From IMG/VR virus record IMGVR_UViG_2690315922_000005: a DNA stretch of 11,483 bases. One strand, given 5' to 3'. Of the stretch, positions 1-9,071 are shown piece after piece. Origin of the DNA: a virus. Taxonomy: Duplodnaviria; Heunggongvirae; Uroviricota; Caudoviricetes. The notes under the pieces were generated by a model, which saw only the letters and a list, made by a program, of their open reading frames with translations, searched no databases and was not told where the DNA came from. Made by a program: the position numbers and the translations under genes. The stretch's first letter is position 1; each line of letters opens with the position of its first letter.

Positions 1-1034
1 ACCGCCAGTTCATTTTTTGCAATGGAGATATTGTCTGCCGGTGTAAGCAACTGATGGCTGTATTCCCCGTTCGCACCGGAAATCGCCTCACTGATACGCG
101 ATACCTTCAGTTCTCCCTGCGGATAACCATCACGCAGCAGGAACGAACGCAACTCCGCGGTGATGGCAGCCCGTATTTCCGGTGTGTCCGGCGTCACGCG
201 GATATGAAAATCCACCGTATGTGCCACCGGCCTGAACACATACAAATCAGAGCCTGCCACCGGGGCCAGTGGCCCGATATGTTGTCTTGCCGCCGTTTCC
301 GTTGATTCTTCCGGAATGGGATTAATCAGGTCACTGCTGGCAATCATCACACCGACAGTTCCCGTTCCCATCCAGTGACGGTATGTCCATGCGCGGGTAA
401 TGCCGGGAACTTCTTTAGCCCAGACGACATAGTCCCCGTCAGCCCCGCCCTGCGGCGTCCAGTAATACCGCTCAATGACGCGGGCGCGCCACGTTTCCAG
501 ATCTTCAGTATCGAATCCGCCAGTCAGAGTATCTGCAACACCGGAAGACGGCAGACCATTCACCGGCGTGACCAGGATTAATGCCGTACCGTCGTCAGCG
601 TTACCGACCGCGCCTGCACTTGAGCAAGTGATCGGCACGCGCAGGACACCACCGGAGCTGGTTGCATCAGCAGTTGCCGTGTACTGAACCAGGTCATCGC
701 GCTGAATCACGCTCCCGGCAGTCACCTTCAGGCCATCGCTGACACCTTCCCAGCGCATATACCCGCTGGCAGCCGTGGCCCCCTTGCGCGGACACCGTTT
801 CATCGCAGCATGTCGCGCCAGCCAGGACTCATCGCACAGGTCAGGCAGCATGTTCATTGCCAGATAATCGATGTACCCGTAAACCGTATGCAGCGCCGCC
901 GCATACACCTTTGCCCGCACGTCTTCATCCATGCGCCGGAGCGTGTCGCTGACGTCCAGCCTGGCGAATAAATCGTTACGGAGCATACTGATATTTTCTG
1001 CCAGCGTCGGGCGCTGAAATTCACTGTCCGCCAT
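1..1034 (-). CDS. Baseplate J-like protein (Mu gp47 / P2 gpJ family), N-terminal part; gene continues past the window start
   Basis: Hand translation of the minus strand from ATG at 1034-1032 gives MADSEFQRPTLAENISMLRNDLFARLDVSDTLRRMDEDVRAKVYAAALHTVYGYIDYL... I checked several stretches across the region and found no in-frame stop; the rest rests on a single quick pass. Not in the ORF track because it has no stop inside the window. Its start overlaps the stop of the upstream GP46-like gene by 14 nt (ATGGCGGACAGTGA). Position right after the gp45/gp46 homologues matches Mu-type baseplate order. Confidence 0.7.
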   Translation of the reverse strand, partial: MADSEFQRPTLAENISMLRNDLFARLDVSDTLRRMDEDVRAKVYAAALHTVYGYIDYLAMNMLPDLCDESWLARHAAMKRCPRKGATAASGYMRWEGVSDGLKVTAGSVIQRDDLVQYTATADATSSGGVLRVPITCSSAGAVGNADDGTALILVTPVNGLPSSGVADTLTGGFDTEDLETWRARVIERYYWTPQGGADGDYVVWAKEVPGITRAWTYRHWMGTGTVGVMIASSDLINPIPEESTETAARQHIGPLAPVAGSDLYVFRPVAHTVDFHIRVTPDTPEIRAAITAELRSFLLRDGYPQGELKVSRISEAISGANGEYSHQLLTPADNISIAKNELA

Positions 1035-1994: not shown

Positions 1995-3073
1995 CAGAAC
2001 GGGTCCTCCTGTACTCTGGCTTTTTTCTTTTTCCGCGCGCCGGGGGCTTCGGGTTCAGGCAGATAAGCATCAGGCGGGCCGACACGGATTTCCGTCAGGG
2101 TGCCGTTCTGGTCCTGAGTAAACGTGACTTCCGAAACAAGCAGTTCGGTATTGTCGAAACCACAGACCGGATCAAAGACAATCACCCGCTGGTTGGGCTG
2201 CCACAGCGTACCGTTACCCTGTCGCCAGCCCTGCACCACATAGGTGGTTTCATCCGTCCGCGCCGCCCGTTGTCGGGCTTCAAAGTCCGCACGGGCAATA
2301 CAGCCTGCCCCCGTAGCCTGCCCTGTCTGCCTGATATACATCGGACGGTAACGGGCAATAAATGCGTCCTCTGTGCGGGCCCGCAGCGCGGTGGTGGTGG
2401 CCTCACCGAAATCATCGTCGTTTCCGGCACGCTGCCCCGCCACCTGGTAAACTGAAAACCGCTCCCGGATACTCTTCTCCGTATCGCAGGAAAGGATGTT
2501 TTCCCCGAGTACCAGCGCAGTATGTGCCCGCGTTGAGCCAATACCACCAATCACCAGCCTGCCGTGCGGGTCGTCGTAAGCCAGTGCCTGCTGCTGACCG
2601 AGTATTTTGTTGATTACCTCAATCACCGTTTCACCGTGATCGGGCTGGACGTCAGGAATAACACCCGACTGCGCACCGTTGTTCACCACCTCAATGCCGA
2701 AAGGCGCAGCAAGCGCCTGCGCAATCTGTACCAGCGATCGTCCGTTAAACTGTGTCGGTTCGGCTGCACAGTCAATCAGGTCAGCAGTCAGACTACGTCC
2801 GGCAATACCGGTGCTGACCGAACGGGCATCGTAACGAACGGGGGTCGCCTCCACCCAGCCGGTGATCACCAGCTCATCACCAATCAGCACTTCCACTTTT
2901 GAACCATTTTTAATGCGCGGCTGAAGCGTGGTGATACCCTCATCTCCCGGCCACTGGCGGGTGATCTCCACGCTGAAATCCCGCGCCAGCCGTTCAATAC
3001 CGGCACCGATGCGCACCGATGTCCAGCCATTCCACTCCCGGCCATTTACCCGTAGCGTGACATTGTCGTTCAT
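1994..3073 (-). CDS. Baseplate hub protein, Mu gpP-like (gp44; phage late control D family)
   Basis: 359-aa ORF (MNDNVTLRVNGREWNGWTSVRIGAGIERLARDF...) sitting between the gpN-like and gpV-like genes. Ends in a poly-lysine tail (KKKKARVQEDPF). Confidence 0.75.
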   Translation of the reverse strand: MNDNVTLRVNGREWNGWTSVRIGAGIERLARDFSVEITRQWPGDEGITTLQPRIKNGSKVEVLIGDELVITGWVEATPVRYDARSVSTGIAGRSLTADLIDCAAEPTQFNGRSLVQIAQALAAPFGIEVVNNGAQSGVIPDVQPDHGETVIEVINKILGQQQALAYDDPHGRLVIGGIGSTRAHTALVLGENILSCDTEKSIRERFSVYQVAGQRAGNDDDFGEATTTALRARTEDAFIARYRPMYIRQTGQATGAGCIARADFEARQRAARTDETTYVVQGWRQGNGTLWQPNQRVIVFDPVCGFDNTELLVSEVTFTQDQNGTLTEIRVGPPDAYLPEPEAPGARKKKKARVQEDPF

Positions 3074-4398
3074 TGCACTGGCACCTTCAGAGGGATCACC
3101 GGCACAAAGCCGGGATGCGTAATGGCATTACGCAGGATAATGTCCGCGTCACGCGCCGCGTTATCAAACCAGGTCGCCGCCAGCACCAGCGCGGGTAAAA
3201 CCTCATCCGGCGTGCGCTGAATGATCCGAGCAGACTGTTCAAGGCGCGTGTTGATATCCGCATTCAGATCTGCTTTCACCCGGCGCAGCGCCAGAAACAG
3301 CGCATCACTGGTTGTACGGGACAACTCCTTATCAATTGCCATATTCAGTGTGTCGCGAATGTCGGTCAGTTCTTCCCACGTTGGCAGGTCAACCGTGTTT
3401 TTCACCGCCGGTGCATTGTTCAGCACCGGATGCGTGACGGCAGGCCAGCCGGAGCTCTGCGCGGGTGTTGTTGACTGCCCCACTGCGGCATTCTGCATCA
3501 CCGCAGAAGTTGTTGGCGCAGGCAATCGGGTAACGGCATACGCCGCTTCGCTGATTGCGGTCGTACGAAGGGTGCTGGCAACCACGTTACGCTGCTGCGT
3601 CGCCGTGGCGGTGGTTTTACTGTCCGTTTTCCAGACGCCGCGCGGTTGCAGATCGCTGCCGAGGCTGACACCGGAAAGCGTTTTGATCATGGTGACCAGG
3701 TCGCTGGCGTTACCATAAAGGCGTTTCCCGGTACGCCACATTTTCTGCACCTGCTCAACGAAATTTTTGCCTGACGATGGCGGCGGCAGAAGTACCGAGA
3801 TATCCCCCTGCAACAGCCTGGCGGCATCCGATACGGCAGAATCCACCACTTTCATCGCATCAGAAACATACCCAAGCATTGTGCTGGCATTACCGACGAC
3901 ATCGTTCTGCACAAAATCTGCCACGCCATCGATACTGAAACTACTGAAACTGTCACTGATGCAGTCATCCAGTGCAGAACAGGATGACATCAGCGTCTGC
4001 GCCGTCGCCGCACCTGATGTGGGGTAAGAGAGTTCTCCCGCTTCGACAAACTTCAGGTCAAAGCGGACAATACGCCCTTCACTCTTCGATGTGCTGACCC
4101 GAAATTCTCCGTCAACACAGACTTTCAGCTCACCGTAAGTCGGATGGACAAGCGTGCCGGGACCGGGTTTATTCAGCGCGTCAATCAGGCGATCGCGCTG
4201 GTCAAAGCAGTCATCTCCCACCACATAAGCCGTGATGGACGGGCGGAAAGTGATTTTCCCCAGGTCTTCGGTATAGGGTTTGTCGCGGTTCGGGTATTCG
4301 TGCGTTTCCACACGACGGCCAGTTCCCGCACTTTCTTCTTCAACCTTAAACGGCACACCTCGAAATGACGCATCCTGAAGCCTGTCTTTCCACGTCAT
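3070..4398 (-). CDS. DNA circularization protein N-like tail protein (Mu gpN / gp43 family)
   Basis: 442-aa ORF (MTWKDRLQDASFRGVPFKVEEESAGTGRRVETHEYPNRDKPYTEDLG...). The conserved N-terminal region is recognisable. GGAG Shine-Dalgarno 5 nt upstream of the ATG. Confidence 0.75.
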   Translation of the reverse strand: MTWKDRLQDASFRGVPFKVEEESAGTGRRVETHEYPNRDKPYTEDLGKITFRPSITAYVVGDDCFDQRDRLIDALNKPGPGTLVHPTYGELKVCVDGEFRVSTSKSEGRIVRFDLKFVEAGELSYPTSGAATAQTLMSSCSALDDCISDSFSSFSIDGVADFVQNDVVGNASTMLGYVSDAMKVVDSAVSDAARLLQGDISVLLPPPSSGKNFVEQVQKMWRTGKRLYGNASDLVTMIKTLSGVSLGSDLQPRGVWKTDSKTTATATQQRNVVASTLRTTAISEAAYAVTRLPAPTTSAVMQNAAVGQSTTPAQSSGWPAVTHPVLNNAPAVKNTVDLPTWEELTDIRDTLNMAIDKELSRTTSDALFLALRRVKADLNADINTRLEQSARIIQRTPDEVLPALVLAATWFDNAARDADIILRNAITHPGFVPVIPLKVPVQ

Positions 4399-4408
4399 AT
4401 ATACTCCG

Positions 4409-4439
4409 AAAATTAAAAAGCCACCTATTAGAAGGTGGC
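4409..4439 (-). terminator. Rho-independent terminator downstream of the moron ORF
   Basis: Minus strand reads GCCACCT-TCTAAT-AGGTGGC (7-bp perfect stem, 6-nt loop) followed directly by TTTTTAATTTT. It lies 20 nt past the moron stop codon and ends about 10 nt before the gpN-like ATG. Confidence 0.75.
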
Positions 4440-4459
4440 CTTGTAATGAATTTTATTAA

Positions 4460-4990
4460 TTAGCGAGTCAGAAACAACGAATCTTTATACTTTTGCTGTT
4501 GTTCATTTAAATACTTAGCTGTTTCATCGCTGGCAAATGGAAATATTACCGTATTTTTAGGCATGGTAATTTCTTTTTTGTCCAGCGTCAGAGTAAACAT
4601 AGGAACATACTGAGCAGAGTAACGCACCGCAGAAACGAGCTCTAGTTTAGACTCTTCAACAACACTTAAATTATCCAGGCTAACTTTCTCTTCATCTTTT
4701 TTCTTTGACGCATTTAAAGTTTTTATTACTTTATTTAATTTCTCCTGAAAATCCTCCTTAAAGTTTTCAGGATTGCCGTCGACAACAAGAATCTGTTCAC
4801 CCTGATTATCTGGAAAAATAATCTTTGCACTTATCAATTTATTTTCTTTATAAACATCACCAAGTTTTATGGCTCCTCCAGATAACTGAATAATATGTTC
4901 ATCTTTAAAGGAGATGTTGCCAGAGATTATGAGAGATGAAAAAATAGCCGCTGCTCCAAGAATTACACTTGCTGTGATATAGCCTTTCAT
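4460..4990 (-). CDS. Moron-encoded hypothetical protein, 176 aa, with an N-terminal membrane anchor or signal sequence; lysine/glutamate-rich; family not recognised
   Basis: Intact ORF in an AT-rich island (about 30-35% G+C by eye against about 55-60% in flanking tail genes). The N-terminus MKGYITASVILGAAAIFSSLIISG is a roughly 20-residue hydrophobic segment after a basic residue; it has no cysteine, so it is not a lipoprotein. Has its own promoter and terminator. Confidence 0.8.
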   Translation of the reverse strand: MKGYITASVILGAAAIFSSLIISGNISFKDEHIIQLSGGAIKLGDVYKENKLISAKIIFPDNQGEQILVVDGNPENFKEDFQEKLNKVIKTLNASKKKDEEKVSLDNLSVVEESKLELVSAVRYSAQYVPMFTLTLDKKEITMPKNTVIFPFASDETAKYLNEQQQKYKDSLFLTR

Positions 4991-5025
4991 TTTTCGCCTA
5001 TTAACATTTTTCTAAATGTGCATTA

Positions 5026-5053
5026 ATTCTATCACTCTATTTATGACTTACAA
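5026..5053 (-). promoter_or_regulatory. Candidate sigma70 promoter for the moron gene
   Basis: Minus strand reads TTGTAA (-35, 5053-5048), a 16-nt spacer, then TAGAAT (-10, 5031-5026) preceded by TG-A (extended -10 like). About 35 nt upstream of the moron ATG at 4990, in the gap after the tape-measure stop. Confidence 0.5.
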
Positions 5054-5081
5054 CCAGCAATACCTGTGAGGGGAATCCTGG

Positions 5082-6914
5082 CTACCAAAATCGGGTATAG
5101 CCAACATCGTGATTTATATCAATGCCACTGGAGCGTGTTTCCGTAACCCGCATACCTGATGGCATATTTATAAATGATACCTTGATCTCACCATCAACTT
5201 TTGGCGCGGTAGCTTTATTAATCATGAAGGGATTCGGGCCTGTGGCACCGGAGGCGTTGTTTGCCTGAGCCGGATCCACCGCCGGATAAGGTGTGTATCC
5301 CCGCGCCGGTATTCCCGTCCCATAAGCATCATAAGCACCCGCGCCCCACTGCGCAGAGTTAATGGCATCGACCGTGTCACCGGAACTGTCGGTAAACCAC
5401 TCAATAATTGGCTTCAGCTTGTCCCACATATCCTGAAACCACTTAACAACCGGTCCCCAGTTATTGATCACCATCCCCAGCGGCGACCAGGCAAAAACCT
5501 TCTTCAGAAGTTCCCAACCTGCCTCAAAATAAGGACCAATGGTTTCCCAGAGCTTCTTGAAATAAGGTCCGACAACATCCCAGTTAGTGATAATTAATCC
5601 CGCAGCCAGAGCAATCGCCGTCGCAATCATGCCAATCGGCGTCATCGACATAATCCTGCTGACAATACTGATGGCACTGCCCACGCCCATCAATCCCAGT
5701 TTCAGAATCGCAAGACCGGCAGCAAGCCCGACGACGCCGCGAATAACCCGGGGATTTTCATCCGCAAACTTCGTGAATTTCTCCCCCAACTCCCCCAGCC
5801 ATTGTGTGATATTTTTAGCGTCACCAGAAAATGCGCCGCCAATAGCCGCAAGGCCGTTAGTTGCGGTCCCTGTCATTGCCTCCCACAGGTTGGACAGCGT
5901 ACCAAGCTGTGCCTGAACACGTTTATTCAGGCTGGCCTGTTTATGCATCTTCTGCTGGATCTGATCGTAGCCATCCTTTCCTTTATCGATTAGTGCATTG
6001 ACCACCTGAAGGGTTTCGGCATCATCACCAAATATTGCCTTAAGTACACCGGTTCGCTTAACGTCGGTCAGTTTTCGCAGCTTTGCCAGTTGCCTGAACA
6101 TGTTATCAAGACCGCCAAAACTTCCTTTGCCGTCAGTAAAATCGAGCTGTACCCCGAGTTTCTGGCGGGCCATAACTTTATTAACGTCCCTGATTTTCTT
6201 AACGCTTAATCCGGACTGGATAACTTTTCGCAGGGCATTACCTGCCGACTCCCCGTTCATCCCCATCTGATCCATCATGACGCTGATGGGGGCAAGGCTC
6301 TGTGCAGCCTGAAGACCATCCTTGTTCACCATCTTCAGAACAGAACTGGTTTTAGTGAAGAAGGACAACATGTTGGTATCGTCAACGCCCAGATAAAACG
6401 CCTTCTGGATAGTGTCGAACAGCCCCATCATGTCTTCTGACGCCGTTCCGGTAGCATCCTGCATCTTTGCAGCAAACTCGGCAGCCGCTTCCGGTGTTTT
6501 TTTCAGTTGTACCGCAAGATAAGCTGTCGCTTTACCCACACCACCCAGAATGTTTTCTGCCGGGATCCCCTGACGCACCAGCATCTGCATCATGTTCTGG
6601 AAATCAGCCGTTGTACCGGGTAGCTGGTTACCCAGGCCAATAGCCAGTTTATTGATGTCCTGAAAGCTCTTTCCAACCTCGCCGTTCGCATCCATCATGG
6701 CGACTTTCAGCCCGGTGGCGGCGTTTTCCTGATCGGCATAAGATTTCAGGGAAAGCGTCAGACCCGCTGCCAGTCCGCCCCCAAGCGCCAGCCCACCCTG
6801 TGACGCTTCTTCCGCCTGGCGTTTAAATCCCCGGATTTTCTTTTGCATTTTCGACAGCGCGGGAGAAAGCCTGTCGACACCGGTGATCAACGCCTTAAGC
6901 TCAAATTCAGCCAT
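5082..6914 (-). CDS. Tail tape measure protein
   Basis: 610-aa ORF, Ala/Gly/Leu-rich with an internal hydrophobic stretch. Immediately follows the chaperone pair, and its start overlaps the end of the frameshift-extension ORF, which is the canonical arrangement. Confidence 0.85.
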   Translation of the reverse strand: MAEFELKALITGVDRLSPALSKMQKKIRGFKRQAEEASQGGLALGGGLAAGLTLSLKSYADQENAATGLKVAMMDANGEVGKSFQDINKLAIGLGNQLPGTTADFQNMMQMLVRQGIPAENILGGVGKATAYLAVQLKKTPEAAAEFAAKMQDATGTASEDMMGLFDTIQKAFYLGVDDTNMLSFFTKTSSVLKMVNKDGLQAAQSLAPISVMMDQMGMNGESAGNALRKVIQSGLSVKKIRDVNKVMARQKLGVQLDFTDGKGSFGGLDNMFRQLAKLRKLTDVKRTGVLKAIFGDDAETLQVVNALIDKGKDGYDQIQQKMHKQASLNKRVQAQLGTLSNLWEAMTGTATNGLAAIGGAFSGDAKNITQWLGELGEKFTKFADENPRVIRGVVGLAAGLAILKLGLMGVGSAISIVSRIMSMTPIGMIATAIALAAGLIITNWDVVGPYFKKLWETIGPYFEAGWELLKKVFAWSPLGMVINNWGPVVKWFQDMWDKLKPIIEWFTDSSGDTVDAINSAQWGAGAYDAYGTGIPARGYTPYPAVDPAQANNASGATGPNPFMINKATAPKVDGEIKVSFINMPSGMRVTETRSSGIDINHDVGYTRFW

Positions 6915-7074
6915 GTGTGCGTTTCTCCTGCTCTATCCTGTTTGCCTGACTGACCAGTAAGGGAATTTCACTGATCGGCATATTCAGCAATTCGAAAGGA
7001 TTAATGCGCCAGTAGCTGGCGCAGTCAAAGAAGCGATCAGTGAGGTATTCAGCCGTCAGGCCTGGAGGAAAAAA
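6907..7074 (-). CDS. -1 frame extension of the tail assembly chaperone (gpGT-like fusion product, predicted programmed frameshift)
   Basis: The -1 frame ORF (track 6907..7089) overlaps the 3' end of the chaperone gene and stays open to a TGA at 6907, overlapping the tape measure start. The slip site T TTT TTC is at 7074-7068 on the minus strand. Confidence 0.5.
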   Translation of the reverse strand, partial: FFPPGLTAEYLTDRFFDCASYWRINPFELLNMPISEIPLLVSQANRIEQEKRTHG

Positions 7075-7325
7075 CCAGCCACAAGCCACGCCGCTGCATT
7101 CAGGTCTGCCGGAGACATCTGGTCGACAGAGCTTTGCGGCACTTTCGCCAGCCGCACAATGTATTTCGACACCACATGCGCCAGAAGTTTGACTGACTCA
7201 TCCTGATTCATCTGGTAGGGATACCCCAGCTCGCGGACATCCTTCCCGGTGGGCTCATCAAACTCCAGTACGGAGAGTGTCTCGCCATGAGCAGTAATCG
7301 GTTTCTTTAACTCAAGCTCTTTCAT
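7056..7325 (-). CDS. Tail assembly chaperone (Mu gp41-like; lambda gpG analogue)
   Basis: 89-aa ORF between the tube and tape measure genes. Ends ...GGT TTT TTC CTC CAG GCC TGA, containing the slippery heptamer T TTT TTC. Confidence 0.7.
   Translation of the reverse strand: MKELELKKPITAHGETLSVLEFDEPTGKDVRELGYPYQMNQDESVKLLAHVVSKYIVRLAKVPQSSVDQMSPADLNAAAWLVAGFFLQA
7068..7074 (-). promoter_or_regulatory. Slippery heptanucleotide U UUU UUC (X XXY YYZ) for -1 ribosomal frameshifting
   Basis: Plus strand is gaaaaaa at 7068-7074, so minus strand is TTTTTTC in the zero-frame register T TTT TTC, four codons before the chaperone stop. Confidence 0.5.
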
Positions 7326-7681
7326 TACTGGTAATCCCCTTCTTCACCGTGGAACTCAAGATCAACCGTGCCTTCTTCGGCATTATGGTTCGCTTCGCCG
7401 TGCAGCCAGGCAGACGACAGTACATAGACCTGACCGTTCGCCAGCTCGGCAGTGATAGTCATCTCATCAGACGAGGTGATTTTGTTCACCGGAAAATTCT
7501 TCGGCACCTTGAAAGTCCCTTTGACATAAGGCGCACGGTGAGTTTCCTTGCGGTCCACTGAACCGTCCAGGCCGATGATGTCATCATTGACCGTCCTGTT
7601 CATGGGCACCTCAATGCCGCCGGTCAGCGATAGCTGTTGACCGTCAATTTTGAAATAACAGGTTCCCCCGATACGGGCCAT
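7325..7681 (-). CDS. Tail tube protein (Mu gpM / gp40-like)
   Basis: 118-aa ORF directly after the sheath gene with a 1-nt start/stop overlap. The size and position are as expected for the tube protein of a contractile tail. Its stop overlaps the chaperone start (TAATG). Confidence 0.75.
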   Translation of the reverse strand: MARIGGTCYFKIDGQQLSLTGGIEVPMNRTVNDDIIGLDGSVDRKETHRAPYVKGTFKVPKNFPVNKITSSDEMTITAELANGQVYVLSSAWLHGEANHNAEEGTVDLEFHGEEGDYQ

Positions 7682-9071
7682 TATGCAGACTCCTCTGAAT
7701 ACTGAAGACGGAACTGGTTAACCACGGCAAAGACACGCAACTGGTTAACATAGTCAGGCGGGAACAGCGTGTTCAGGCGGTTCGGATCGCTGGCATCACG
7801 CTCCACAACCAGGTACTGCTTAAACAGTTCGTAGTTTTCCACGGTCCCCGCACGCTCAAGCTGACGGTAGGTTGCCAGCAGTTCCCCTTTGATCACCGCC
7901 GGTGTGACAATCGCCTGACCTGGACCAAAGCGGGTACCGTCGCTGGCAAGCTTGTGACGCCCGTACTTACTGGTAATGACGGATTTCAGTTTGCGCAGCA
8001 CATACGCGCTGGTATGCAGCGTCTCGCTGTCGAGGTAGCTGTTATCCGCAACACCGTAAGCGTTTTTCCTGTACGTGGTGACATCACGCTGAATGCGCAG
8101 CACCCCGCTTTCGACATACGCCGTTGCCACGCCATGAGACAGCAGGGTCTGTTGTTCGGTCATCGTGAACCGTTTCCCCTTCGGCGCAGGCAGCATACCC
8201 ACCAGCTCACCGGTCTGCGTGGGACGTGCCGGATCGTTGCGGATAAACACCGCTGCGCNNNNNNNNNNNNNNNNNNNNTTGCCGTATACACATGACCATA
8301 CAGCTGACGCGCATAGCTCCAGCGACCGCTGGTATCGTTCATCTCGGTCACCAGCGTGTTAACGGAGGCTGTGTCGTTGAACGGCAGGCCGATATAATCA
8401 AACGGCTCATCCGCCATTGCAGCCACCGCGCCGGTGAGAACAGGAGCGCCCGTTCCGGCGGTACCCGTCGCCACGGCAATCTGTACGCCCGCTGGCAGCA
8501 CTTCGCCCCCACCAAAGCCGTAGTAATTGAGGCTGACAGGAATTTCATTCCCGCAAAGCCCCTTATGACGCGCGGTCAGTGTGACCACGCCTGCCGAAGA
8601 TGAGGCAGTAAACGGCAGGGTCGGAACGGCATTGATGGCATCCTGGATACTGCTGGCAATCGTCGCAACGTTATCGCCGTTGGTCACCGGTGCCTGCACG
8701 CGGGTACGTCCCACATAAACATTCACCGTGCCGGTTTCGGTTGCCGCGCCGGTCACCGTCAGCGTAACCGTTGCCGCCGCGCCCGTGGATTCAGGAACGG
8801 CAATCACATACAGCTCGCCAAACGGGTCGGTCTGGCGATAAGCCTCGACCATACGCGCCAGCTGACTTCCCGCACCACAAATCTGGCGTGCATAGTCTGC
8901 CGACGGCATCAGTACCAGACTGTTGGCAACAATCTCTGCACCGTTATTGGCATGACCAATCAGCAGCGATGCTCCGCTGTCCTGTGCAGTATTCGCCGCC
9001 TGATTATCCATTTCCGCATAAAACAGCGGAACCAGCGTATTCGACGGAATGGTGTTAAAGCTTATCGTCAT
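7681..9071 (-). CDS. Tail sheath protein (Mu gpL / gp39-like), interrupted by an assembly gap
   Basis: Track ORF 8160..9071 gives the N-terminal roughly 264 aa up to the N run. Track ORF 7681..8250 is the C-terminal roughly 190 aa, and its frame stays open up to the gap, so its M is not a real start. The two halves are in different registers across the 20 N, so the gap length is unknown. Content and position are typical of a sheath. Confidence 0.8.
8259..8278. other. Assembly gap (20 N)
   Basis: Literal run of n characters in the sequence. Confidence 0.99.

What the first reader, a model, noticed from the sequence alone, without database searches (positions are those of the whole stretch)
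4460..4990. Moron product is a membrane-anchored, Lys/Glu-rich 176-aa protein of unknown family; candidate superinfection-exclusion or defence effector
The N-terminus MKGYITASVILGAAAIFSSLIISG is a single hydrophobic segment with no lipobox cysteine and no clear AXA cleavage site, suggesting a signal-anchor or uncleaved signal peptide with an exported C-terminal domain. The rest is charged and lysine-rich with no motif I recognise. Small envelope proteins expressed from prophages often block DNA injection by related phages or alter surface properties. A single-gene abortive-infection function is an alternative.
Basis: inference. Interest (0 to 1): 0.75.

Follow-up and report, generated by a model that had tools for sequence, protein, structure and literature searches.

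The report
Membrane-anchored periplasmic prophage moron protein
An extra, AT-rich gene inserted next to the tape-measure gene of an E. coli prophage encodes an uncharacterised inner-membrane-anchored periplasmic protein that most likely stops other phages from injecting their DNA, and it sits in a previously undescribed hotspot where five unrelated envelope-protein genes alternate.

Summary
A 176-aa ORF lies at 4460-4990 (minus strand) in a 35%-GC island. It is inserted between the tape-measure (TMP) and DNA-circulation genes of an SfV-like E. coli prophage with a Mu-type tail, and it has a strong promoter-like site and a robust terminator.

It belongs to a small uncharacterised family (phrog_5485; 78 clusters at 50% identity, named members all Gammaproteobacteria). 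Pfam, NCBIfam and PADLOC give no match, and a pLDDT-90 model has no PDB fold relative.

Family-wide charge bias, N-terminal extensions in some members and a lipoprotein-anchored remote relative in lytic Pseudomonas phages indicate an uncleaved N-in/C-out anchor with a periplasmic alpha/beta domain. Long-term selection is purifying (dN/dS about 0.04).

The gene keeps the TMP-adjacent slot down to about 30% identity. It also lies beside the TMP, on the opposite strand, in an unrelated myovirus prophage, and it survives alone in a decayed prophage.

The junction is a hotspot: empty in most prophages, otherwise filled by one of five unrelated envelope proteins, one matching a "Sie-like" PHROG.

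Superinfection exclusion at the DNA-entry step, analogous to HK97 gp15, T4 Imm and Ltp, is the best-supported function. It is unproven (confidence about 0.45).

The parts
4460..4990 (-). CDS of the 176-aa moron protein (RefSeq WP_001560827.1; phrog_5485)
   Evidence: ORF list and translation. Annotated identically in NZ_AP022107.1. Full-length match to phrog_5485, E 6e-108.
4922..4984 (-). Codons for residues 3-23: the single transmembrane helix (uncleaved signal-anchor, N-in/C-out)
   Evidence: KD19 of 2.1. AF2 helix at 3-23. Family-wide: uncharged segment averages 24 aa, net charge +1.9 on the N-side and -0.5 on the C-side, 86% of members N-in, and three members carry 30-116 aa ahead of the helix.
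4844..4897 (-). Codons for residues 32-49: the membrane-proximal beta-hairpin carrying the family signature (H/N-x-I-x3-G-G-x-V/I-K-L-G-x-V-Y-x-E)
   Evidence: G39, L43, G44 and E49 are invariant or nearly invariant across 71 members. The same motif follows the lipidated Cys in the ventosus lipoprotein.
4475..4903 (-). Codons for residues 30-172: the predicted periplasmic alpha/beta domain (hairpin, then beta-beta-alpha, beta-beta-alpha)
5026..5053 (-). Sigma-70 promoter-like site: TTGTAA, 16 nt, TAGAAT with an extended -10 TG, ending 35 nt upstream of the ATG
   Evidence: Consensus scan. Score 10 of 13, against 1 of 484 control windows from flanking tail genes reaching 10. This is predicted only; there are no expression data.
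4994..4999 (-). Weak Shine-Dalgarno-like AGGCGA, 4 nt upstream of the ATG
   Evidence: Read directly from the sequence.
4407..4442 (-). Intrinsic terminator: a 10-bp stem with a 6-nt loop, followed by a T-run
   Evidence: Terminator scan. RNA fold -17.3 kcal/mol, z -4.7, with 0 of 200 shuffles folding as well. Analogous hairpins follow the gene in L003, L007, L086, L092 and L093.
4411..5081 (-). The whole inserted AT-rich cassette (promoter, gene, terminator) relative to empty-slot phages such as SfII
   Evidence: Alignment with SfII and Leclercia. Composition profile. Empty-slot span 1,036 bp against 1,656 bp with the cassette.
5082..6914 (-). Upstream neighbour: tail tape-measure protein (610 aa) with two predicted membrane helices at about residues 390-448. 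This is the candidate target class, not part of the moron.
   Evidence: PF10145, E 1e-26. PHROG TMP families. Hydropathy.
3070..4398 (-). Downstream neighbour: Mu gp43-type DNA-circulation / baseplate hub protein (442 aa)
   Evidence: PF07157, E 6e-34. phrog_184.

Best explanation
The gene is a moron: a horizontally acquired, self-contained transcription unit inserted at the tape-measure / DNA-circulation junction of an SfV-like prophage with a Mu-type contractile tail.

Its product is a bitopic inner-membrane protein. It has a very short cytoplasmic N-terminus, one uncleaved transmembrane helix (residues 3-23), and a compact periplasmic alpha/beta domain of about 145 residues. The most conserved element, a beta-hairpin, lies right at the membrane surface.

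The most likely job is superinfection exclusion. When expressed from the lysogen, the periplasmic domain would intercept the genome-delivery machinery of an incoming tailed phage at the periplasm / inner-membrane step. The most plausible target is the ejected tape-measure protein that has to build the channel through the inner membrane. Adsorption would proceed but DNA would not enter.

Shown here: the moron anatomy, the gene's reality and purifying selection, the topology (computationally), the lack of any known family or solved-structure fold neighbour, and the recurrent TMP-adjacent position in a cargo hotspot.

Inferred: expression in the lysogen, the exclusion function, and the TMP as target.
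For: MORON ANATOMY
- GC is 34% against 52-58% in the neighbours.
- The gene is absent from SfII and from about half of the E. coli prophages that share both flanks.
- It has a promoter-like site scoring 10 of 13, against 1 of 484 control windows, and a terminator with z -4.7.
- In L091 the homologue is on the opposite strand to the tail operon, so it must be transcribed independently there.

PERIPLASMIC, MEMBRANE-ANCHORED
- Positive-inside statistics over 71 members, and N-terminal extensions of 30-116 aa ahead of the helix in three members.
- A remote relative in the lytic Pseudomonas phage ventosus carries a lipobox (LLTGC) in place of the helix, followed directly by the family hairpin motif (Foldseek E 9e-7).

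SELECTED FOR ITS OWN SAKE
- dN/dS is about 0.04.
- An intact copy with only about 100 bp of TMP remnant survives next to icd in Lelliottia amnigena after the prophage was lost.
- The window's own prophage context in NZ_AP022107.1 has truncated tail-fibre genes and an IS1, yet the gene is intact.

LINKAGE TO THE TMP
- The slot TMP-X-DNA_circ is kept at 53%, 38%, 30% and 33% identity.
- In an unrelated E217/PhiTE-type myovirus prophage, X lies between the tail chaperone and the TMP.

HOTSPOT OF ENVELOPE PROTEINS
- The same junction alternatively carries a TM+OB-fold protein, a lipoprotein, a signal-peptide protein or a 2-TM protein. All are AT-rich and mutually unrelated.
- The OB-fold protein matches phrog_8545, 'superinfection exclusion Sie-like', at E 7e-49.

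PRECEDENTS
- HK97 gp15, the founding moron, lies between the tail chaperone and TMP genes. It is an inner-membrane exclusion protein whose block depends on the incoming tail (PMC3594210; PMC10883804).
- T4 Imm binds the T4 TMP directly (bioRxiv 10.64898/2026.03.06.709160).
- The lipoprotein Ltp targets a TMP (Bebeacua 2013, cited in PMC3952083 and PMC10883804).
Against: - There is no functional datum of any kind for this family.
- There is no sequence or fold similarity to any characterised exclusion protein.
- Promoter-like sites are strong only in the E. coli alleles and are unremarkable (7-9 of 13) in other lineages.
- In SfV-like phages the gene is co-oriented with the late tail operon, so it could be expressed mainly late.
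- Within E. coli, pN/pS is about 0.7 (16 synonymous and 40 non-synonymous segregating sites). Recent constraint therefore looks relaxed.
- The 'Sie-like' label on the alternative cargo is itself a homology-based PHROG annotation, not an experiment in E. coli.
- Several distant members lie in apparently non-phage chromosomal contexts (L094, L103).
- Morons beside tail genes can have functions unrelated to phages, such as lambda lom.
Confidence: 0.45

Rival explanations
1. It is a lysogenic-conversion envelope factor that benefits the host for reasons unrelated to phages, for example stress, serum or bile resistance, adhesion, or envelope homeostasis. This would be in the manner of lambda Bor and Lom, which are also moron-encoded envelope proteins.
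For: The moron anatomy and periplasmic location are the same as in the main explanation. A copy is retained in a decayed prophage and in non-phage chromosomal contexts, so selection acts at the host level. There is no similarity to any known exclusion protein. PMC3594210 reviews morons with such roles.
Against: The gene recurs immediately next to the TMP gene in two unrelated tail-module types. A homologous lipoprotein exists in strictly lytic Pseudomonas phages, which gain nothing from long-term host fitness. A Sie-like protein is an alternative cargo at the same junction.
Confidence: 0.25
2. It is a defence effector of another type, such as an abortive-infection or membrane-perturbing protein that is triggered by infection and kills or arrests the cell.
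For: It is a single small membrane protein carried by a prophage. Some single-gene Abi proteins are membrane proteins (general knowledge).
Against: PADLOC gives no match for the protein and no consistent match among 71 members. There is only one TM helix, and the rest is a compact, well-folded periplasmic alpha/beta domain with no amphipathic or pore-forming features. A cytoplasmic sensing surface is essentially absent, since the N-terminus has only two residues before the helix.
Confidence: 0.1
3. It is an accessory of the phage's own lytic cycle, expressed with the late tail operon. Candidates are a periplasmic lysis-timing or spanin-like component, or a factor that protects the lysing cell or its progeny.
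For: It is co-oriented with the tail operon in SfV-like phages, so late read-through is likely. Its size and type-II topology resemble an i-spanin (Rz, about 150 aa; general knowledge).
Against: The gene is absent from most closely related phages, which are viable (SfII, SfV, SfI, SfIV). The prophage already has a complete lysis cassette with an i-spanin-like DUF2570 protein and an Rz1-like LysC. The domain is a globular alpha/beta fold, not a coiled coil. In L091 the gene is on the opposite strand to the tail genes. In Lelliottia it is retained without any phage.
Confidence: 0.1

Closest known systems
HK97 gp15 (moron-encoded superinfection-exclusion protein; YebO-like)
   Same: It is a moron with deviant GC and its own promoter and terminator, inserted in the tail operon directly beside the tape-measure gene. 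The product is a small inner-membrane protein expressed from the prophage. Its exclusion acts at DNA entry and depends on the tail region of the incoming phage (PMC3594210; PMC10883804).
   Different: There is no sequence relationship: no Pfam or PHROG link. The protein here is larger, and most of it is a folded periplasmic alpha/beta domain rather than little more than a membrane helix. The host phage has a contractile Mu-type tail, whereas HK97 is a siphovirus. The function here is untested.
T4 Imm
   Same: It is a phage-encoded inner-membrane protein that blocks genome entry by a contractile-tailed phage, and it has been shown to bind the tape-measure protein (bioRxiv 10.64898/2026.03.06.709160).
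   Different: Imm is a small, largely helical protein embedded in the membrane, from a lytic phage. The protein here has one helix plus a periplasmic globular domain. There is no match to the Pfam Imm family.
Ltp of Streptococcus phage TP-J34, and lactococcal Sie2009-type proteins
   Same: These are prophage-encoded, membrane-tethered, extracytoplasmic proteins that block DNA injection. Ltp's target is the TMP (refs in PMC3952083, PMC10883804). The OB-fold (tRNA_anti-like) protein that alternates with this gene at the same junction matches the 'Sie-like' phrog_8545.
   Different: They occur in Gram-positive hosts. Ltp is a lipoprotein with helical repeat domains. The protein here matches neither family.
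Lipoprotein CNR37_00111 of Pseudomonas phage ventosus and relatives (uncharacterised)
   Same: It is the only significant structural match (Foldseek E 9e-7, TM 0.55/0.65). It shares the hairpin motif, and the profile-profile comparison gives E 6e-5 over 124 columns.
   Different: It is anchored by a lipobox instead of a TM helix. It is shorter (144 aa) and lacks part of the first helix region. It is encoded among early/middle genes of lytic phages of about 95-100 kb, not in a tail module. Its function is also unknown.

Membership tests
Moron (Juhala/Hendrix definition) | An extra gene present in one phage genome but absent between the same neighbours in close relatives | tested here: met
   SfII has only a terminator hairpin between the TMP and DNA-circulation genes. 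About half of the sampled E. coli prophages with both flanks have an empty slot.
Moron (Juhala/Hendrix definition) | Base composition different from the surrounding phage genes | tested here: met
   34% GC (GC3 30%) against 52-58%. The same contrast (31-43% against 48-57%) is seen in all prophage-borne homologues examined.
Moron (Juhala/Hendrix definition) | Own promoter and terminator, allowing expression from the repressed prophage | tested here: inconclusive
   The terminator is strong. The promoter-like site is strong in the window and in L086 (10 and 11 of 13, against 1 of 484 controls reaching 10) but ordinary in other lineages. The opposite-strand copy in L091 requires its own promoter. 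No expression data are available.
HK97 gp15 / YebO family | Sequence membership (YebO-like N-terminal region) | tested here: not met
   No Pfam family at E <= 0.1. The only PHROG matches are phrog_5485 and phrog_34391 (both unknown function) and a marginal chance-level match to phrog_15137 (endonuclease, E 0.01).
T4 Imm, P22 SieA/SieB, Cor, Llp and Ltp exclusion families | Sequence or fold membership in any annotated exclusion family; a lipobox for Cor, Llp and Ltp | tested here: not met
Sie2009-like / tRNA_anti-like OB-fold membrane proteins (phrog_8545) | PF12869 OB-fold domain behind an N-terminal anchor | tested here: not met
   There is no PF12869 or phrog_8545 match for this protein. The alternative cargo at the same junction (E. 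coli 3CM and 042) does match: PF12869 at E 1.5e-18 and phrog_8545 at E 7e-49.
Superinfection-exclusion proteins (functional class) | Expression in the lysogen blocks infection by a superinfecting phage after adsorption, at DNA entry | not testable with these tools
   This requires plating, adsorption and DNA-entry assays.
Known anti-phage defence systems (PADLOC-DB 2.0) | Match to any defence-system protein model | tested here: not met
   There are 0 matches for the protein at E <= 1. Among 71 family members there are only four scattered single-member hits at E 2e-4 to 3e-3.
i-spanin (Rz-like) | Type-II inner-membrane protein with a coiled-coil periplasmic domain, paired with an o-spanin lipoprotein in the lysis cassette | tested here: not met
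   The topology fits, but the domain is a globular alpha/beta fold. The gene lies in the tail module. The prophage has a separate lysis cassette with a DUF2570 protein and an Rz1-like LysC.

The most novel reading that the evidence does not exclude
The tape-measure / baseplate-hub junction of SfV-like prophages, and TMP-adjacent positions more generally, could be a dedicated 'entry-immunity' locus. Under this reading, interchangeable and structurally unrelated periplasm-facing proteins are kept genetically linked to the TMP because each is a specific blocker of TMP-mediated channel formation, comparable to colicin immunity proteins linked to their pore-forming toxins.

The 176-aa protein would then be the founder of a new-fold class of periplasmic TMP binders. 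Its membrane-proximal conserved hairpin and open beta-sheet face would capture the extended TMP as it leaves the tail tube. The same domain has been ported onto a lipid anchor in lytic Pseudomonas phages.
Probability: 0.15. Interest if true: 0.7.

Novelty: new variant of a known kind. Interest (0 to 1): 0.45.

Why it matters
Membrane proteins that block phage genome entry are common in prophages, but very few families are characterised, and almost none for temperate contractile-tailed phages of enterobacteria.

This family is present in about 3% of complete E. coli genomes (175 of 5,426). It has a confident predicted structure with no solved relative, and it sits in a compact, easily assayed hotspot where at least five unrelated envelope proteins alternate.

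If these are exclusion factors, three things follow:
- The hotspot is a ready-made panel for working out how Mu-type tails cross the periplasm and inner membrane.
- The same panel could show how tape-measure proteins are targeted.
- It could help predict resistance of clinical E. coli to therapeutic phages.

If they are not exclusion factors, the locus is still a clean example of moron turnover at a fixed junction.

Tried and rejected
- Family searches (Pfam, NCBIfam, PADLOC) on the protein, and Pfam and PADLOC on all 71 aligned members, gave nothing consistent.
- A sequence search of the PDB gave only chance-level hits, E >= 0.5.
- The afdb50 and afdb_sample libraries were unavailable.
- tblastn against 50,697 deposited phage genomes gave no match, so no isolated phage in that collection carries the gene.
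- The search for related loci with the deep alignments failed for lack of a conserved stretch. With A4 it returned almost only the identical E. coli allele.
- Literature searches for the RefSeq accession, for tail-module morons in SfV-like phages, and for the OB-fold/Sie link found no description of this family or hotspot. The only moron discussed for SfIV is elsewhere in that genome.
- The Tai/Tab tail-assembly-interference systems were looked at only in outline, and nothing linked them to this gene.

Full report
1. THE OBSERVATION

It lies in a sharp AT-rich island. Sliding-window GC drops to 0.35 across 4400-5200 against about 0.55 on either side. The gene has 34% GC and 30% GC3, while the neighbouring genes have 52-58% GC and 56-62% GC3.

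The protein contains no cysteine, so there is no lipobox. The only candidate signal-peptidase sites are weak. 'Lys/Glu-rich' is only mildly true: K 11.9%, E 8.0%, and the part after the helix is slightly acidic (pI 5.6).

2. THE SETTING

All the large ORFs of the window are on the minus strand and form a Mu-type contractile-tail module:
- tail tube (PF10618)
- tail assembly chaperone (PF10109)
- tape-measure protein (TMP; 5082-6914; PF10145)
- the 176-aa gene
- DNA-circulation / baseplate hub protein (3070-4398; PF07157)
- Mu gp44-, gp45- and gp46-like baseplate proteins

The DNA is 100% identical to a prophage of E. coli WP5-S17-ESBL-11, where the gene is annotated 'hypothetical protein' WP_001560827.1. 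That prophage has an HK97-type head, a lambdoid early region and an O-antigen acyltransferase, so it is an SfV-like phage. It looks partly decayed, with truncated tail-fibre genes and an IS1.

The Shigella phages SfII, SfI, SfV and SfIV match only the flanks. In SfII the TMP and DNA-circulation genes are separated by nothing but a terminator-like hairpin. The gene is therefore an insertion of about 670 bp.

It is preceded by TTGTAA-16 nt-TAGAAT with an extended -10 TG. In my own scoring that site gets 10 of 13, a value reached by 1 of 484 equal-sized control windows from the flanking tail genes. It is followed by a 10-bp hairpin and T-run (-17.3 kcal/mol, z -4.7).

By the classical criteria this is a moron. 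Only expression from the repressed prophage remains unshown.

3. THE FAMILY

PHROGs holds a full-length family of unknown function (phrog_5485, E 6e-108). Pfam, NCBIfam and PADLOC give nothing, and the PDB sequence search gives nothing.

The word-indexed search found only enterobacterial relatives: E. coli, and Leclercia and Lelliottia at 52-59% identity. An exhaustive profile search of 1.84 billion cluster representatives found 78 clusters, nearly all 165-200 aa and matching end to end. The named members come from Mangrovibacter, Lelliottia and an Aeromonadaceae MAG.

No deposited phage genome in INPHARED encodes it. About 3% of complete E. coli genomes (175 of 5,426) carry the cassette.

Across 71 aligned members, the conserved positions fall in two places. 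One is a motif just after the hydrophobic helix (G39, L43, G44, E49). The other is in later strands (N93, Y124, L134).

The gene evolves under strong long-term purifying selection. Between a Leclercia prophage copy and the Lelliottia copy, dN is 0.13 with dS saturated, so dN/dS is about 0.04. Within E. coli the polymorphism is less constrained (16 synonymous and 40 non-synonymous segregating sites, pN/pS about 0.7; one of 27 alleles has a premature stop).

4. STRUCTURE AND TOPOLOGY

With 15 sequences AF2 gave a mediocre model (pLDDT 65). With 71 sequences it gave a confident one (mean pLDDT 90.3, pTM 0.75). The elements are:
- helix 3-23
- a beta-hairpin at 33-42
- strands 46-58 and 67-72
- helix 74-93
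- strands 114-126 and 132-143
- helix 149-171

This is a two-layer alpha/beta domain built from two beta-beta-alpha units.

The BFVD viral library gave a single significant hit, a 144-aa 'lipoprotein' of the lytic Pseudomonas phage ventosus (E 9e-7, TM 0.55/0.65). I located it as CNR37_00111. It has a textbook lipobox (LLTGC), and directly after the cysteine comes the family's hairpin motif: TKDTIIHTRSAVVNVGEVTAEG against the consensus kdeniisltnGaVkLGkVysE. Profile-profile comparison gives E 6e-5 over 124 columns. Three other lytic Pseudomonas phages of about 95-100 kb have it.

The same domain on a lipid anchor means the domain works outside the cytoplasm.

Independent support for an uncleaved N-in/C-out anchor comes from the family alignment:
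- The uncharged segment averages 24 residues (minimum 19).
- The N-side flank has net charge +1.9 and the C-side flank -0.5.
- 86% of members obey the positive-inside rule.
- Three members carry 30-116 residues before the helix.

5. GENOMIC CONTEXTS

In Leclercia (53% identity), Mangrovibacter (38%) and two metagenomic prophages (30-33%), the gene occupies the same TMP-X-DNA_circ slot. It always has intergenic gaps on both sides and is always AT-rich relative to its flanks (31-43% against 48-57%).

In an unrelated E217/PhiTE-type myovirus prophage of a Lelliottia MAG, a 24%-identity member lies between the tail chaperone and the TMP, on the opposite strand to the whole structural operon.

In Lelliottia amnigena, an intact copy with its terminator and about 100 bp of TMP 3' end sits alone just downstream of icd, a classical prophage attachment site (general knowledge). 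The rest of the prophage is gone.

A 23%-identity member lies between a cI-like repressor/CsrA cluster and an integrase in an integrative element. A few distant members are in apparently ordinary chromosomal surroundings.

6. THE JUNCTION IS A CARGO HOTSPOT

I searched E. coli genomes with the two flanks joined together. 863 genomes hold both flanks close together. In 47 evenly spaced rows of the ranking, the spans indicate the following states. One representative of each non-empty class was inspected, so the other rows are assigned by span length.

| Slot state | Rows | Example |
|---|---|---|
| Empty | 26 | as in SfII |
| This 176-aa gene | 10 | the window, NZ_AP022107.1 |
| 164-aa protein with a cleavable signal peptide | 5 | E423 |
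| TM + OB-fold protein, opposite strand | 4 | E. coli 042, 3CM |
| 225-aa lipoprotein (LLGGC) | 1 | Yu5 |
| 145-aa protein with two TM helices, opposite strand | 1 | 2017.10.01CC |

The five cargo proteins are mutually unrelated by BLASTP. All are AT-rich (31-42% GC), and all carry an envelope-targeting signal.

The OB-fold protein is PF12869 (tRNA_anti-like) and matches phrog_8545, 'superinfection exclusion Sie-like', at E 7e-49. The others fall in PHROGs of unknown function.

I found no description of this hotspot in the searchable literature.

7. MECHANISM

The anatomy says this is a bitopic inner-membrane protein whose conserved hairpin sits at the periplasmic face of the membrane. It is made from a self-contained cassette carried by temperate phages, retained when the phage decays, and also used in lipoprotein form by lytic phages.

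The closest analogues by logic rather than by sequence are these:
- **HK97 gp15.** This is the original moron, located between the tail chaperone and TMP genes. It is an inner-membrane protein that blocks DNA entry in a way that depends on the incoming phage's tail (PMC3594210; PMC10883804).
- **T4 Imm.** It binds the T4 TMP and so prevents channel formation by a contractile-tailed phage (bioRxiv 10.64898/2026.03.06.709160).
- **The lipoprotein Ltp.** Its target is a TMP (Bebeacua 2013, cited in PMC3952083 and PMC10883804).

The TMP encoded next to the gene has two predicted membrane helices (residues about 390-448), as expected for a channel-forming TMP.

I therefore consider superinfection exclusion at the DNA-entry step the most likely function (confidence about 0.45). 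The TMP is the most plausible, but quite uncertain, target.

Every functional step is inference. Nothing here shows expression, localisation or any effect on phages.

8. RIVALS

- **A host-fitness envelope factor of the Bor/Lom kind (0.25).** It explains retention after prophage decay. It does not explain the repeated TMP adjacency or the presence of the domain in lytic phages.
- **An Abi-type effector (0.1).** It lacks any support from PADLOC or from the fold, and the protein has almost no cytoplasmic surface.
- **A lytic-cycle accessory or spanin-like role (0.1).** This is contradicted by the gene's absence from viable sister phages, the complete separate lysis cassette, the globular fold, the opposite-strand copy and the phage-less copy.

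9. NOVELTY AND VERDICT

The kind of thing is well known: a moron encoding an envelope protein, probably an exclusion factor. The protein family is uncharacterised and has no solved structural relative. The hotspot with five alternating envelope proteins beside the TMP appears undescribed.

I rate it a new variant of a known kind, with interest 0.45. It is a solid, cheaply testable lead rather than a surprise.

Noticed in passing
window 4400-5081, and loci L095-L099 (E. coli 042, 3CM, Yu5, E423, 2017.10.01CC): The TMP / DNA-circulation junction of SfV-like E. coli prophages is a cargo hotspot. It is either empty or filled by one of at least five mutually unrelated, AT-rich genes, each encoding an envelope-targeted protein. 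These are this gene, a TM+OB-fold 'Sie-like' protein, a lipoprotein, a signal-peptide protein and a 2-TM protein. Two of them lie on the opposite strand.
   Followed up: partly
L002 (SfII) 3109-3147; window 4407-4442: Even empty-slot phages have a terminator-like hairpin between the TMP gene and the DNA-circulation gene, in the middle of the late tail operon. Each cargo brings a different hairpin, but the conserved CGGAGT-N-TATATG start region of the DNA-circulation gene follows directly. The hairpin may attenuate baseplate-gene expression, or it may serve as the landing site for cassettes.
   Followed up: no
L007 9633-10560 (Lelliottia amnigena): An intact family member, with about 100 bp of TMP 3' end upstream and its own terminator, sits alone immediately downstream of icd. 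No other prophage genes remain. It looks like a domesticated remnant.
   Followed up: partly
L101 1995-2429 (Pseudomonas phage ventosus CNR37_00111): A lipoprotein-anchored remote relative of the domain is encoded among early/middle genes of lytic Pseudomonas phages of about 95-100 kb (ventosus, UAVern, Bitten, vB_PF_Y1-MI). Its function is unknown.
   Followed up: partly
window 8259-8278: A run of 20 N (masked bases) interrupts the tail sheath gene. The ORF list therefore shows it as two pieces (7681-8250 and 8160-9071). The gene is intact (1,497 nt) in the identical E. coli record.
   Followed up: yes
window 6907-7325 (minus strand): The tail assembly chaperone gene (PF10109; 7056-7325) is followed by an overlapping 60-aa ORF (6907-7089), with a TTTTTTC heptamer near the end of the chaperone ORF. 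This arrangement is expected for the programmed frameshift that makes the long chaperone form (as in P2 E/E+E' and Mu gp41).
   Followed up: no
L001 8669-15098 (NZ_AP022107.1 context of the window): The prophage that matches the window 100% appears defective. It has an IS1, truncated StfP and tail-fibre-assembly genes, a RusA gene with an internal stop and a frameshifted DinI. Its cargo includes an acyltransferase (Oac-like), a GIY-YIG protein and an ImmA/IrrE-HTH pair near the end.
   Followed up: no
L003-L006, genes at about 12013-13808 (Leclercia prophages): Relative to E. coli, the Leclercia SfV-like prophages carry two extra ORFs with no Pfam match (about 503-520 aa and 94 aa) between the DNA-circulation gene and the gp44-like baseplate gene. 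This is a second variable position in the same tail module.
   Followed up: no
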